Shown piece after piece: positions 61,538 through 62,629 of a DNA stretch of 64,000 nt. The stretch lies in IMG/VR virus record IMGVR_UViG_3300042691_028414. One strand, 5' to 3'. Below the pieces are notes generated by a model. It was not told the DNA's origin. It made no database searches and was given only the letters and a program-made list of their open reading frames with translations. A program made the position numbers and the translations under genes. Within the stretch, counting starts at the first letter, position 1; every line of letters begins with the position of its first letter. Source of the DNA: a virus. Taxonomy: Duplodnaviria > Heunggongvirae > Uroviricota > Caudoviricetes.

Positions 61538-62629
61538 ATGAAAGTTTCAATAAAATATCTTAAATCGGATATCCCAAAAAAAGATTACAAATTATTTGAG
61601 GATTTTATAAAATTCTTAAGTAAAAAATTGCCGTTGGTTGATGATATAGAAATAGTTTTTACGGGTGAAAGATATGGTAAAATGAGTACTGGTAGTAGGA
61701 CTAACAAACATATATTAAAGATACTCGCAAAAAATAGATTAAATAGAGATATTATGAGAACTCTTGCTCACGAATGGGTTCACGAATATCAACACGGAGT
61801 TTTAGATAGAGATAAAGGTCCGGACATTGGTGGGAAAAATGAAGATGAAGCAAATGCGTTTGCGGGTCAAATTGTTAAAATGTTTGAGAAAGACTATCCA
61901 AATTATGAAAAAACAATATTTGAGGGGTTTAAATCAATATCCAATAAATTAGATATCATATCAGAACAGATAGTCCTTAAAGAAAAAGAAAACATCCAAA
62001 AACAGTTTTTAACTGAAATGAAAAAAATAGGTATTGAGAAATTACCTTATTCATATTCAGCAATTAAAAAATTTGTAGATCCTGAGACAATGGATATTCA
62101 TTATAACAAACACTACAAAGGATATGTAAAAAAATTAAACGACGCTTTATCAAGTAGAAAAGGTGATATGGAACTTGAGGACATTGTTAAATCCATTAGT
62201 AAATTTGATACTAAAGTTAGAAACAATGCTGGAGGAGCTTTCAACCATGCATTATTTTGGAAAATGTTATCCCCAACAAAACAAACACCTAAAGGTATTG
62301 TTTTTGAGAAAATAAAAAAACAATACGGTTCATTTAACAAATTTAAAGAAGAATTTAATAAAACCGCATTAGATAGATTTGGTTCAGGGTGGGCTTGGTT
62401 AGTATTAACTAAAACAGGTAGATTAAAAATTATGTCAACCCCAAATCAAGACAATCCATTAATGAATGTTGTTGAGGGTGGTGGTTATCCACTTCTTGGA
62501 CTTGATGTTTGGGAACATGCTTATTATTTGAGATACAGAAACAAGAGGGATCAGTACATTAAAAACTTTTGGAATTGTGTTAATTGGGAATTCGTCAATG
62601 AGTTATACGAATTAAGAATGAAGAAATAA
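61538..62629 (+). CDS. Fusion: HExxH metallopeptidase-like domain + Mn/Fe superoxide dismutase
   Basis: N-terminal TLAHEWVHEYQH...EDEANAFA; C-terminal HYNKH, NNAGGAFNHALFW, FGSGWAW, NQDNP and DVWEHAYY. Start placed at ATG 61538. Confidence 0.85.
   Translation: MKVSIKYLKSDIPKKDYKLFEDFIKFLSKKLPLVDDIEIVFTGERYGKMSTGSRTNKHILKILAKNRLNRDIMRTLAHEWVHEYQHGVLDRDKGPDIGGKNEDEANAFAGQIVKMFEKDYPNYEKTIFEGFKSISNKLDIISEQIVLKEKENIQKQFLTEMKKIGIEKLPYSYSAIKKFVDPETMDIHYNKHYKGYVKKLNDALSSRKGDMELEDIVKSISKFDTKVRNNAGGAFNHALFWKMLSPTKQTPKGIVFEKIKKQYGSFNKFKEEFNKTALDRFGSGWAWLVLTKTGRLKIMSTPNQDNPLMNVVEGGGYPLLGLDVWEHAYYLRYRNKRDQYIKNFWNCVNWEFVNELYELRMKK

What the first reader, a model, noticed from the sequence alone, without database searches (positions are those of the whole stretch)
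61538..62629. HExxH metallopeptidase-SOD fusion joined by a possible prohead-protease-cleavable linker
Seen: an N-terminal domain with HEWVH plus a downstream EDEAN (IrrE/ImmA-like zinc-site layout) is fused to a complete SOD. The SOD has GGAFNH and NQD, which lean Mn/cambialistic. The linker (about 61915-62020) has four hydrophobic-x-E motifs: IFE, ISE, LKE and LTE. The gene sits before the neck gene with a TATTTAT site. Known: T4 gp21 cleaves after (I/L)-x-E. Inference: a late polyprotein that is packaged and split during head maturation, delivering an antioxidant enzyme and a peptidase, possibly to protect virion DNA or the freshly infected cell from superoxide.
Basis: partly seen in the sequence, partly recalled or inferred. 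Interest (0 to 1): 0.72.

Follow-up and report, generated by a model that had tools for sequence, protein, structure and literature searches.

The report
Phage zinc-protease–leader–MnSOD cargo fusion
An uncultured T4-related giant phage makes, from a late-type promoter beside its neck gene, one protein that joins a small zinc-protease domain to an intact manganese-type superoxide dismutase through a 30-residue leader ending in the cutting motif of T4-type head proteases, so the enzyme is probably loaded into the capsid and cut free, though nobody has measured this.

Summary
Window 61538-62629 (+) encodes a 363-aa protein with three parts:
- a well-folded gluzincin-like domain (aa 1-129; H78-E79-x-x-H82 and E102 conserved);
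- a flexible helical segment (130-160);
- a complete Mn-type Fe/Mn SOD (161-363).

It is not an assembly artefact. More than 100 full-length homologues exist, and all 77 complete N-domain genes in 82 related loci also carry the SOD.

The main new result is that the "linker" matches, in length and position, the roughly 30-aa N-terminal leader of stand-alone phage SODs found in the same slot (helicase, SOD, gp13-like neck gene). Its last residues, [I/L/V]-x-E before MKKIGIEKLPY, are invariant.

Relatives append further modules after the SOD. All 42 distinct junctions keep an [L/I/V]-x-E-(S/N) motif. Free-standing copies of two of these module families begin MKIIITES/MKIIISES.

Complete relatives encode a gp21-type prohead protease. 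Their capsid protein has I-N-E|A at the position of the T4 gp23 cleavage site.

The gene carries TATTTAT at -12, as in 74 of 82 relatives.

A head-cargo precursor is therefore the best reading (about 0.5), but packaging and cleavage are untested. This scan has already noted the same fusion family in several other genomes.

The parts
61526..61532 (+). TATTTAT late-type promoter-like motif, 12 nt before the start codon
   Evidence: Sequence. The 7-mer is 13.6-fold enriched within 45 nt upstream of ORFs in this genome. It sits before sheath, baseplate, fibre, neck and leader-bearing genes. It is present upstream of 82 of 82 related fusion genes, at exactly -12 in 74. Promoter function is inferred.
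61538..62629 (+). Whole ORF, 363 aa plus stop: zincin domain, leader, Mn-type SOD
   Evidence: More than 100 homologues cover the full length at 52-98% identity.
61538..61924 (+). N-terminal mini-zincin (gluzincin-like) domain, aa 1-129
   Evidence: AlphaFold2 model with mean pLDDT 90.6: a beta sheet plus a helix bearing HExxH and a helix bearing E102. The fold matches YbeY, M1 aminopeptidase and Wss1 at Z 8.8-9.8 over aa 1-121. Stand-alone homologues of about 125-135 aa end at this boundary.
61769..61783 (+). HEWVH (aa 78-82), the zincin HExxH motif
   Evidence: In 117 homologues H78 is kept in 116, and E79 and H82 in all 117.
61838..61855 (+). NEDEAN (aa 101-106); E102 is the likely third metal ligand, 20 residues after H82
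   Evidence: E102 is invariant. It lies on the helix that follows the HExxH helix in the model. Its role as a ligand is inferred from the gluzincin layout.
61925..62017 (+). Leader/linker, aa 130-160: an amphipathic helical segment not packed against either domain
   Evidence: pLDDT is below 50 for aa 131-168 in the full-length model. In length and position it corresponds to the 30-aa N-terminal leader of stand-alone phage SODs. A profile built from the leader alone aligns aa 132-160 in the right register but is not significant (E 0.78).
62009..62017 (+). LTE (aa 158-160): candidate prohead-protease cleavage site, directly before M161
   Evidence: E160 is invariant in 117 fused homologues and 80 stand-alone leader-SODs. 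P3 is I/L/V (M in one). P1' is M in 78 of 80 stand-alone forms. Cleavage itself is inferred.
62018..62626 (+). Fe/Mn-family superoxide dismutase, Mn-type, aa 161-363, starting MKKIGIEKLPY
   Evidence: Pfam Sod_Fe_N and Sod_Fe_C. The ligands H188, H237, D323 and H327 are invariant. NCBIfam scores the Mn model at 201.6 bits and the Fe model at 169.8 bits. G232-G233 and Q304 (in NQD) are Mn-type signatures.
62631..62637 (+). Second TATTTAT motif, before the gp13-like gene
62653..63783 (+). gp13-like neck protein gene (syntenic neighbour)
   Evidence: Homologues carry the precomputed Pfam PF26809 Phage_T4_gp13. This protein hits phrog_211, head-tail adaptor, at E 1e-9 over its C-terminus only.
59746..61509 (+). 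SNF2-family helicase gene (conserved upstream neighbour)
   Evidence: Pfam SNF2-rel_dom and Helicase_C. The same gene order is seen in L005, L006 and L103-L106.
58172..59176 (-). 334-aa leader-bearing, nuclease-like cargo gene, fused to the SOD in some relatives
   Evidence: It begins MRKMKIMLSESQYFKV. tblastn with the C-terminal extension of the relative P0062 hits it at 33% identity, E 1e-5.

Best explanation
The gene encodes a modular precursor that is probably head cargo. It is transcribed late, from a TATTTAT motif 12 nt before the start codon.

The precursor has three parts:
- a small, probably active zinc metallopeptidase domain (aa 1-129);
- a roughly 30-residue amphipathic leader (aa 130-160);
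- a manganese-type superoxide dismutase (aa 161-363).

The leader is the same element that heads stand-alone SOD genes at this locus in sister phages. By analogy with the capsid-targeting sequences of T4 internal proteins, it would bring the precursor into the scaffold core of the prohead. The gp21-type prohead protease would then cut after E160 (L-T-E|M). That would release a SOD starting at MKKIGIEKLPY and a separate zincin fragment.

Both products would stay in the capsid. They would either be ejected with the DNA or protect the packaged genome from superoxide.

Shown here: the domain anatomy, the conservation, the match between linker and stand-alone leader, the invariant motif, the synteny, the promoter motif, and the protease and the capsid-protein site in relatives.

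Inferred: late transcription, targeting to the prohead, cleavage, packaging, both enzyme activities and the biological role.
For: 1. The fusion is real and conserved. More than 100 homologues cover the full length. All 77 complete N-domain genes among 82 related loci also carry the SOD.

2. Stand-alone SODs of 232-262 aa, 65-80% identical in the SOD part, occupy the same slot between the helicase and the gp13-like gene. They start with a 30-aa leader ending in [I/L/V/M]-x-E-M-K-K-I-G-I. Among 80 such proteins, E is kept in 80, an aliphatic P3 in 80 and M at P1' in 78. The rest of the leader varies but keeps heptad-spaced hydrophobic residues.

3. E160 is also invariant in 117 fused forms. Yet aa 131-168 have pLDDT below 50 and pack against neither domain. 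This points to a conserved linear motif rather than a structural residue.

4. About half of the relatives append further modules after the SOD. All 42 distinct junctions carry [L/I/V]-x-E 4-9 residues into the junction, with S or N at P1' in 36. The background is 38% of 30-aa windows. Free-standing copies of two of these module families begin MKIIITES/MKIIISES, mostly in tandem just downstream of the SOD gene.

5. Module families occur both free and fused. This is expected if the products are separated after translation.

6. Complete relatives (296 kb and 257 kb) encode a Peptidase_S77 (gp21) homologue at E 2e-23. Next to it lie an acidic, scaffold-like protein and a T4-type capsid protein. 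In that capsid protein, L-I-N-E|A aligns with the gp23 L-T-E|A cleavage site of a T4-type phage.

7. TATTTAT is 13.6-fold enriched upstream of ORFs. It marks sheath, baseplate, fibre and neck genes and leader-bearing genes. It sits upstream of 82 of 82 related fusion genes, at -12 in 74.

8. There is precedent. T4 has a capsid-targeting sequence and gp21 processing (PMC9958956). In the giant phage SPN3US, N-terminal propeptides of 20-254 aa are cut after Glu by a prohead protease (PMC10052503). The chlorovirus PBCV-1 has a late-expressed, virion-packaged SOD (PMC7019647).
Against: - There is no proteomic, biochemical or genetic evidence for packaging or cleavage in this lineage, and I found no cultured relative.
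- The window's own contig is only about 40% complete. It does not contain the head module, so the protease is shown only in relatives.
- The leader is about 30 aa and looks like a coiled coil. The T4 capsid-targeting sequence is about 10 aa. The leader could instead be an oligomerisation or docking helix.
- A profile built from the leader alone is not significant on this protein (E 0.78). The match between linker and leader therefore rests on position, length and continuity with the SOD.
- [L/I]-x-E is common in this K/E/I/L-rich proteome (1.1% of positions).
- In T4 the targeting sequence is N-terminal. Here it is internal, behind a folded domain.
- Met at P1' is not among the P1' preferences reported for the SPN3US protease (Ser preferred; PMC10052503).
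Confidence: 0.5

Rival explanations
1. The protein is an uncleaved, two-domain cytoplasmic enzyme, that is, an auxiliary metabolic gene. It would work in the infected cell late in infection, detoxifying superoxide while progeny are made. The helical segment would be a tether or oligomerisation helix. The zincin would have a separate or regulatory role, for example a stress-linked protease as IrrE is in Deinococcus.
For: - Phage-encoded Fe/Mn SODs with no known virion role exist in deposited phage genomes, for example the PA5oct-like Pseudomonas phages and a Vibrio phage.
- The leader has heptad-spaced hydrophobic residues typical of coiled coils.
- Both domains are confidently folded, and nothing in the models demands cleavage.
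- Late expression beside the neck gene does not by itself show packaging.
Against: - This reading does not explain why a Glu with aliphatic P3, directly before the ancestral-looking SOD start MKKIGI, is invariant across 117 fused and 80 stand-alone forms while the rest of the leader drifts.
- It does not explain why every further module fused after the SOD keeps an [L/I/V]-x-E-(S/N) junction.
- It does not explain why the same modules exist free with MKIIITES-type leaders.
- It does not explain why the gene shares the -12 TATTTAT arrangement with leader-bearing genes.
Confidence: 0.25
2. The protein is a self-processing 'polyvalent protein'. The N-terminal zincin itself cuts the linker and, in relatives, the later junctions. 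This could happen before packaging, inside the head, or after ejection into the host, releasing SOD and other modules. The prohead protease would not be needed.
For: - The N-domain has the topology described for the metallopeptidase hub domain of phage polyvalent proteins: a beta sheet, an N-terminal helix, an HExxH helix and a Glu helix. That domain is proposed to autoprocess such proteins (PMC5512222; model).
- The same domain is fused to many unrelated modules in 1,804 protein clusters. Partners include a nuclease-like module, a 2H-phosphoesterase/Acb1-like domain and large multi-enzyme proteins.
- The catalytic residues are strictly conserved.
- The linker is exposed.
Against: - The [I/L/V]-x-E-M motif is just as invariant in stand-alone leader-SODs, which have no zincin in the same polypeptide.
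- The zincin is an addition found in only part of the SOD lineage.
- The full-length model shows no docking of the linker into the active site.
- Cutting after Glu is the known habit of gp21-type proteases, not a known zincin preference. Zincin preference here is from my own knowledge and was not tested.
Confidence: 0.15
3. The fusion is an artefact: an assembly chimera, a lost stop codon, or a gene-calling or genetic-code error.
For: None found. The only oddity is an alternative TTG start 6 nt upstream, listed by the ORF finder.
Against: - The frame is continuous under table 11.
- The same architecture appears on hundreds of independent contigs from JGI, ENA, NCBI and Logan at 52-98% identity.
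- Both domains and the junction are under visible constraint.
Confidence: 0.01

Closest known systems
Phage T4 internal proteins IPI-III and Alt: capsid-targeting sequence plus gp21 processing (PMC9958956)
   Same: - A short leader on otherwise unrelated, non-essential enzymes.
- A leader ending in aliphatic-x-Glu.
- A gp21-family protease in the lineage.
- A T4-type capsid protein that keeps an I-N-E|A site at the gp23 cleavage position.
- Late-type expression next to morphogenesis genes.
   Different: - The leader is about 30 aa and looks like a coiled coil, not about 10 aa.
- Here it is internal, behind a folded 129-aa domain.
- The cargo is a SOD and a zincin.
- Several modules can be strung into one polypeptide.
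- Packaging and cleavage are not shown.
Prohead-protease substrates of giant phages: SPN3US gp245 and homologous proteases in phiKZ and 201phi2-1 (PMC10052503)
   Same: - Many head and ejection proteins carry N-terminal propeptides of 20-254 residues.
- These are removed by a prohead protease that cuts after Glu in an x-x-E motif.
- Long propeptides are cut at several sites.
   Different: - That lineage uses A/S/G at P3; here P3 is I/L/V, as in T4.
- No SOD or zincin passenger is reported there.
- This phage group is not closely related to phiKZ-like phages. Its capsid protein is T4-type.
Polyvalent proteins of phages and conjugative elements, with a zincin-like metallopeptidase hub domain (Iyer et al. 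2017, PMC5512222)
   Same: - Unrelated enzymatic domains joined in one phage polypeptide.
- A small HExxH-plus-Glu zincin is the recurring domain.
- Fusion partners are promiscuous.
- Those proteins are proposed to be delivered with the DNA and processed by proteolysis.
   Different: - This protein is much smaller (2-4 modules).
- SOD is not mentioned as a module in that paper (0 occurrences).
- Junctions carry a gp21-type motif that is also conserved where no zincin is present.
- Membership of the 12 metallopeptidase clades defined there was not tested.
Virion-packaged Cu/Zn SOD of chlorovirus PBCV-1 (A245R) (PMC7019647, citing Kang et al. 2014)
   Same: A virus-encoded SOD that is expressed late and carried in the particle. 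It is thought to lower superoxide early in infection.
   Different: - It is an unrelated SOD family (Cu/Zn, not Fe/Mn).
- It belongs to a eukaryotic giant virus.
- It has no leader, protease site or fusion partner.
Bacterial manganese SOD (SodA)
   Same: - About 47-53% identity to host-derived SodA sequences in contaminated phage records.
- All four metal ligands are present.
- Mn-type Gly-Gly and C-domain Gln signatures are present.
   Different: - It scores below NCBIfam's equivalog cut-off (201.6 against 363 bits).
- It carries a 160-aa N-terminal addition.
- It is encoded by a phage next to a neck gene.

Membership tests
Fe/Mn superoxide dismutase (Pfam PF00081 + PF02777) | Both Pfam domains score above their gathering thresholds | tested here: met
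   Sod_Fe_N scores 74.5 bits (cut-off 27). Sod_Fe_C scores 141.5 bits (cut-off 20.9).
Fe/Mn superoxide dismutase (Pfam PF00081 + PF02777) | Four metal ligands (His, His, Asp, His) are present | tested here: met
   H188, H237, D323 and H327 are present and invariant in 73 aligned homologues.
Fe/Mn superoxide dismutase (Pfam PF00081 + PF02777) | Mn rather than Fe specificity | tested here: inconclusive
   The NCBIfam Mn model scores 201.6 bits and the Fe model 169.8 bits, both below their equivalog cut-offs. G232-G233 and Q304 (NQD) are Mn-type signatures by established knowledge. A cambialistic enzyme cannot be excluded from sequence.
Fe/Mn superoxide dismutase (Pfam PF00081 + PF02777) | Superoxide dismutase activity | not testable with these tools
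   This needs an activity gel or assay on recombinant protein or virions.
Zincin / gluzincin metallopeptidase fold | HExxH motif on a helix | tested here: met
   H78-E79-W-V-H82 lies on helix 69-87. It is kept in 116-117 of 117 homologues.
Zincin / gluzincin metallopeptidase fold | Third ligand Glu on the following helix | tested here: met
   E102 is invariant. It lies 20 residues after H82, on helix 100-119, within G-G-x-N-E. Metal binding itself was not tested.
Zincin / gluzincin metallopeptidase fold | Zincin fold: mixed beta sheet plus active-site helices | tested here: met
   VIA-align gives Z 9.8 (YbeY-like 1oz9), 9.2 (ERAP1 catalytic domain) and 8.8 (Wss1) over aa 1-121. Foldseek's best PDB match is Wss1 at E 1e-3. 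AlphaFold DB matches are SprT-like, DUF4157, DUF1570 and IrrE-N proteins at E 3e-6 to 4e-4.
Zincin / gluzincin metallopeptidase fold | Membership of a named peptidase family by profile | tested here: not met
   Pfam gives only sub-threshold hits: DUF6055, DUF4344 and BSP at E 0.013-0.06. PHROGs gives none, NCBIfam none, and PDB by sequence none. The domain forms its own family of 1,804 clusters.
ImmA/IrrE (peptidase M78) | A profile match to the family, and structural closeness to IrrE/PprI | tested here: inconclusive
   Pfam gave no M78 hit at E <= 0.1. IrrE/PprI structures match weakly: Foldseek E 0.06; VIA Z 6.5 over 83 residues. Some viral look-alikes are labelled 'IrrE N-terminal-like'.
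T4-type capsid-targeted, gp21-processed head cargo | A gp21-family (Peptidase_S77) prohead protease is encoded by the phage | tested here: inconclusive
   It is present in three related records, including both complete ones, at E 2e-23. The window's own contig is about 40% complete and lacks the head module.
T4-type capsid-targeted, gp21-processed head cargo | A leader ending in (L/I)-x-E directly before the mature protein | tested here: met
   L158-T159-E160 lies before M161. E is invariant and P3 aliphatic in 117 fused and 80 stand-alone homologues.
T4-type capsid-targeted, gp21-processed head cargo | A short (about 10 aa) N-terminal targeting peptide, as in IPII and IPIII | tested here: not met
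   The leader is about 30 aa. In this protein it is internal, after a 129-aa domain. The T4 length is taken from PMC9958956.
T4-type capsid-targeted, gp21-processed head cargo | Late expression | tested here: inconclusive
   The TATTTAT motif at -12 is shared with structural and leader-bearing genes. There are no transcript data.
T4-type capsid-targeted, gp21-processed head cargo | Presence in proheads or virions, and cleavage at the motif | not testable with these tools
   This needs virion proteomics or co-expression with the protease.
Polyvalent proteins (Iyer et al. 2017) | Two or more unrelated enzymatic domains in one phage polypeptide, including a zincin-like metallopeptidase | tested here: met
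   This protein has a zincin plus a SOD. Relatives add nuclease-like and other modules, up to 958 aa.
Polyvalent proteins (Iyer et al. 2017) | The metallopeptidase belongs to one of the 12 clades defined in the paper | not tested

The most novel reading that the evidence does not exclude
These phages may have a position-independent 'load and cut' cassette: an amphipathic leader ending in aliphatic-x-Glu. It would let them string arbitrary enzymes into late polyproteins. Here the enzymes are a zinc protease and a Mn-SOD; in relatives they also include nuclease-like and unknown modules.

The polyproteins would be loaded into the prohead and split by the gp21-type protease. The virion would then deliver an antioxidant enzyme together with the DNA. 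That enzyme could blunt a superoxide burst or a ROS-dependent defence at the first moment of infection, or protect the packaged genome in sunlit water.

This would be the first capsid-borne Fe/Mn SOD in a bacteriophage. It would also be a natural counterpart of the engineered T4 targeting-sequence packaging system.
Probability: 0.35. Interest if true: 0.8.

Novelty: new variant of a known kind. Interest (0 to 1): 0.6.

Why it matters
If the reading holds, three things follow.
- A large and widespread group of uncultured aquatic T4-related jumbo phages carries an antioxidant enzyme and a protease inside the capsid.
- The repertoire of known phage ejection proteins would grow beyond nucleic-acid and transcription effectors.
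- Oxidative stress would be implicated as a barrier at the moment of infection or during the free-virion stage.

The free and fused forms of the same modules give a natural set of predicted cleavage sites. These can be tested directly by mass spectrometry.

The leader could also be used as a packaging tag.

Even if packaging fails, the conserved zincin-SOD pairing and the 1,804-cluster mini-zincin family are unannotated and worth naming.

Tried and rejected
- **PHROGs** on the protein gave no family.
- **Named family for the N-domain:** Pfam, NCBIfam and PDB-by-sequence gave nothing significant.
- **Head module in the window's own contig:** PHROG scans of the flanking genes found tail, baseplate, replication and glycosyltransferase genes. 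They found no capsid, portal or protease gene, because the contig is about 40% complete.
- **Records behind L005 and L006:** The genome search does not hold them. I used IMG/VR relatives instead.
- **Cultured relatives:** DNA polymerase B is at most 25% identical to any deposited phage. The capsid protein's best match is an uncultured 484-kb phage at 45% identity. The fusion has no full-length match in deposited phage records.
- **Leader-only profile (30 positions):** searched against this genome's and G002's proteomes, it aligns aa 132-160 in the right register but at E 0.78. It picks up no other cargo protein convincingly. Leader homology therefore cannot be claimed from sequence score alone.
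- **Internal translation start at M161:** rejected as a general mechanism, because position 161 is Ile in 40 of 117 fused homologues.
not present within the 45 nt upstream of this gene; TATTTAT is there instead.
- **C-terminal extension modules of relatives:** a tblastn of 15 of them against this genome matched only the nuclease-like module, at 58172-59176. This copy of the gene ends right at the basic patch where relatives continue.
- **Full-length model:** it gives no fixed arrangement between the domains (pTM 0.54). It neither supports nor excludes autoproteolysis.
- **SOD-domain tree:** the fused state is clustered but needs at least 7 changes. I do not claim a single origin or an order of events. 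The tree is unrooted and built with FastTree, and some 'stand-alone' rows may be fragments.
- **Complex prediction:** no job was run. An enzyme-substrate pair is a poor use of that tool.
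Full report
**Observation**

Window 61538-62629 (+) is one open frame of 363 codons ending in TAA.
- HEWVH, aa 78-82
- NEDEAN, aa 101-106
- GGAFNH, aa 232-237
- NQD, aa 303-305
- DVWEH, aa 323-327
- IFE, ISE, LKE and LTE, between aa 127 and 160

Pfam finds both halves of an Fe/Mn superoxide dismutase at aa 167-245 and 252-355 (E 1e-20 and 1e-41). It gives only sub-threshold metallopeptidase-like hits for the N-terminus. PHROGs has no family for the protein. The ORF finder offers a TTG start 6 nt upstream. 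Homologues begin at MKV, and the upstream 7-mer TATTTAT covers that TTG, so 61538 is the likely start.

**Not an artefact**

A search of 5.8 billion proteins returned more than 100 homologues that cover the full length at 52-98% identity. They come from JGI, ENA, NCBI and Logan contigs. A scan of IMG/VR with the N-domain profile found 425 relatives. I examined 82 related loci: the 80 best from that scan plus two contigs fetched earlier. In all 77 where the gene is complete, the N-domain gene also contains the SOD.

The gene order is conserved: SNF2 helicase, this gene, a gp13-like neck gene, a small gene, then DNA polymerase B on the other strand.

The contig is an IMG/VR record of 118.6 kb with 31% G+C, estimated about 40% complete. 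It carries a tail sheath, a baseplate hub, very large fibre-like proteins, a sigma factor, a glutamine synthetase and a DnaJ. These features fit the Bacteroidota-associated aquatic 'moraphages' (PMC12619734). That paper does not mention a SOD, and I did not test membership.

**The N-terminal domain**

I used an alignment of 64 homologues for structure prediction. AlphaFold2 gives a confident model (mean pLDDT 90.6). It has four strands, a helix carrying H78-E79-x-x-H82, and a following helix carrying E102.

Conservation across 117 homologues:
- Invariant: E79, H82, E102, R67, N69, R70, D71, T75, W80, Q85, M49, T51 and G52.
- H78 is kept in 116 of 117.

This is the gluzincin layout: two His and a Glu about 20 residues later, within G-G-x-N-E.

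Fold searches agree on a zincin fold:
- VIA-align gives Z 9.8 to a YbeY-like protein, 9.2 to the ERAP1 catalytic domain and 8.8 to Wss1, all over aa 1-121.
- Foldseek's best PDB match is Wss1.
- In AlphaFold DB clusters it finds SprT-like, DUF4157, DUF1570 and IrrE-N-like proteins.
- In BFVD it finds a 127-aa protein of an uncultured phage at TM 0.70/0.90 and 37% identity.

No named family claims the domain by profile.

An exhaustive profile search found the domain in 1,804 representative clusters:
- Many are stand-alone proteins of 125-135 aa that end at ...(M/L)YE, which is exactly residue 129 here.
- Others are fused to unrelated modules, such as a nuclease-like domain or a 2H-phosphoesterase/Acb1-like domain.
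- Some copies sit inside proteins of 700-1,900 aa.

The domain is thus a promiscuous module of phage multi-domain proteins. This matches the zincin 'hub' of polyvalent proteins described by Iyer et al. (PMC5512222).

**The SOD**

The four metal ligands (H188, H237, D323, H327) are present and invariant. NCBIfam prefers the Mn model (201.6 bits) to the Fe model (169.8 bits). Both are below the equivalog cut-offs. The Gly-Gly at 232-233 and the C-domain Gln in NQD are Mn-type signatures by established knowledge.

**The linker matches a leader**

This is the main new result. I searched with the SOD part alone, in a length range that excludes the fusions. That returned many proteins of 232-262 aa, 65-80% identical in the SOD part. 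They begin with about 30 extra residues of the form MKKLE.KI.LI.EEI...(F/L)(L/I)xE, followed by MKKIGIEKLPY.

Two such genes, from different sublineages, lie in exactly the same slot between the helicase and the gp13-like gene. There is no room for a zincin gene between them.

In 80 stand-alone proteins:
- position 30 is Glu in 80;
- position 28 is I/L/V/M in 80;
- position 31 is Met in 78;
- positions 1-29 vary but keep hydrophobic residues at 4, 8, 11 and 15.

Residues 131-160 of the window's protein correspond to this leader in length and register. The stand-alone zincins end at residue 129. The protein is therefore zincin (1-129), then SOD leader (130-160), then SOD (161-363).

E160 is invariant in the 117 fused forms as well. 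In the full-length AlphaFold2 model both domains are folded, but aa 131-168 have pLDDT below 50 and touch neither domain. Residues 160-163 are therefore a strongly conserved linear motif (E160 invariant; K162 and K163 kept in more than 90%) in a flexible segment.

One caveat applies. A profile of the 30 leader positions alone aligns aa 132-160 end to end but is not significant (E 0.78). The equivalence rests on position and continuity, not on score.

**Further passengers in relatives**

About one in six homologues in the protein search, and about half of the IMG/VR genes, continue past the SOD for 80 to 600 residues. The extensions fall into at least five unrelated module families.

Each of the 42 distinct junctions has [L/I/V]-x-E 4-9 residues after a basic patch at the SOD C-terminus. 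S or N follows in 36 of them. By comparison, 38% of 30-aa windows in these proteomes contain any such motif.

Free-standing copies turned up for two of the five module families. Most sit in tandem just downstream of the SOD gene, and a few lie just upstream. They begin MKIIITES... or MKIIISESQY.... The fused junction (…KKETINES…, …PLNES…) keeps the same motif in the same register.

One module is the homologue of window gene 58172-59176, which here stands alone and begins MRKMKIMLSESQYFKV. In this window the SOD gene stops right at the basic patch.

The same modules occur free with a leader or fused through the leader. This is what one expects if the products end up separate either way.

**Head maturation machinery**

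The window's contig lacks the head genes. The two related records that CheckV rates complete (296 kb and 257 kb) and a third, partial record encode a Peptidase_S77 (T4 gp21) homologue at E 2e-23. In the 257-kb record an acidic, scaffold-like protein and a T4-type capsid protein lie next to it.

I aligned that capsid protein with gp23 of a T4-type phage. The sequence ...LINE|ATSEG... falls on ...FLTE|AEIGG..., the site where 65 residues are removed from gp23 (the 65-residue removal is from PMC9958956, and its placement after FLTE is my own knowledge). The lineage thus probably keeps the T4 habit of cutting after aliphatic-x-Glu.

That complete genome also has several families of genes with shared N-terminal leaders: MKKIIRLTESDL..., MNLQESIRRILREE... 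and MKIIITESQY.... Earlier notes of this scan reported the same for this genome.

**Expression signal**

TATTTAT is the most enriched 7-mer within 45 nt upstream of ORFs in this genome (13.6-fold). It precedes sheath, baseplate, fibre and neck genes and leader-bearing genes. It lies 12 nt before the start codon of the SOD fusion here. It is present upstream of 82 of 82 related fusion genes, at -12 in 74. It also precedes the stand-alone SOD genes and, in the complete relative, the capsid and scaffold genes. I read it as a late promoter element by analogy with T4's TATAAATA. That is inference.

**Weighing the explanations**

The head-cargo precursor model accounts for all of the following:
- the invariant Glu motif in both fused and free SODs;
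- the junction motifs;
- the free and fused forms of the modules;
- the promoter class;
- the presence of the right protease.

It also has experimental precedent:
- the T4 targeting sequence (PMC9958956);
- Glu-specific trimming of 20-254-residue propeptides in giant phages (PMC10052503);
- a late-expressed, virion-packaged SOD in a chlorovirus (PMC7019647).

It is still untested: no proteome, no cultured relative, and a leader unlike T4's in length and position. I put it at about 0.5.

An uncleaved cytoplasmic enzyme (0.25) remains possible, but it leaves the motif conservation unexplained.

Self-processing by the zincin (0.15) fits the polyvalent-protein idea. It does not explain the equally invariant motif in SODs that lack a zincin in the same polypeptide.

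**Novelty**

The parts are known kinds: Mn-SOD, zincin, gp21-type processing and polyvalent fusions. The combination is not described in the papers I could search. It consists of a Fe/Mn SOD with a cleavable-looking leader as a conserved gene next to the neck gene of a large phage group, often preceded by a mini-zincin and followed by swappable modules.

This scan has already flagged the same family in several other genomes, with similar readings. Those notes are not independent evidence.

Noticed in passing
window 61526-61532, 62631-62637 and about 25 other ORF upstreams; loci L005-L086: TATTTAT sits at a nearly fixed 11-13 nt before the start codon of the SOD fusion and of most leader-bearing genes. 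Before sheath, fibre and capsid genes it lies 20-48 nt upstream. The short spacing suggests very short or absent 5' leaders on one class of late mRNAs.
   Followed up: partly
L033:12475-13477, L022:5201-5881, L013:11607-12962, L028:11560-12963: In relatives, tandem arrays of 3-4 small paralogous genes (103-151 aa) follow the SOD gene with gaps of about 10-50 nt. Each begins MKIIITES or MKIIISESQY. In-frame fusions of the first copies to the SOD appear to arise from this array.
   Followed up: partly
window 58172-59176 (-): A 334-aa protein has a leader-like N-terminus (MRKMKIMLSESQYFKVMRLVNEEEE) and a weak MjaI-restriction-endonuclease-like C-terminal region (Pfam E 0.0055). Its homologue is fused to the SOD C-terminus in other phages.
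   Followed up: partly
window 52310-53209 (-) and 35517-36182 (-): Two more genes have leader-like N-termini rich in hydrophobic-x-E: MNYSVLTRQIIKEMVNEVEE and MVNMKIDKKILEEINRYK. The first has TATTTAT at -11. Neither matched a Pfam family.
   Followed up: no
G002:C1:7990-12506 (loci L087, L107, L110): The head module of a complete 257-kb relative has the order gp21-like protease, a 499-aa hyper-acidic scaffold-like protein, then a 612-aa T4-type capsid protein with a large insertion relative to gp23. The capsid protein keeps L-I-N-E|A at the position of the T4 gp23 cleavage site.
   Followed up: partly
L004:16111-17307 and L004:4674-5600 (same contig, upstream of the window): The phage encodes a glutamine synthetase and a full DnaJ (J domain, Cys-rich domain and C-terminal domain). 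Both are features reported for the 'moraphage' lineage of aquatic jumbo phages (PMC12619734).
   Followed up: partly
proteins P0129, P0138, P0148, P0172: The same mini-zincin domain heads other fusion proteins. Their C-terminal parts include a nuclease-like module and a 2H-phosphoesterase/Acb1-like domain. It also sits inside proteins of 700-1,900 aa. At 1,804 clusters, this is a large unnamed family.
   Followed up: partly
L002:14730-17660 (DNA polymerase B, just past the window's end): The family-B DNA polymerase is at most 25% identical to any deposited phage polymerase. Its nearest matches are Salinibacter and Nostoc/Anabaena phages. The replication module is therefore very distant from that of T4, even though the head module is T4-type.
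   Followed up: no
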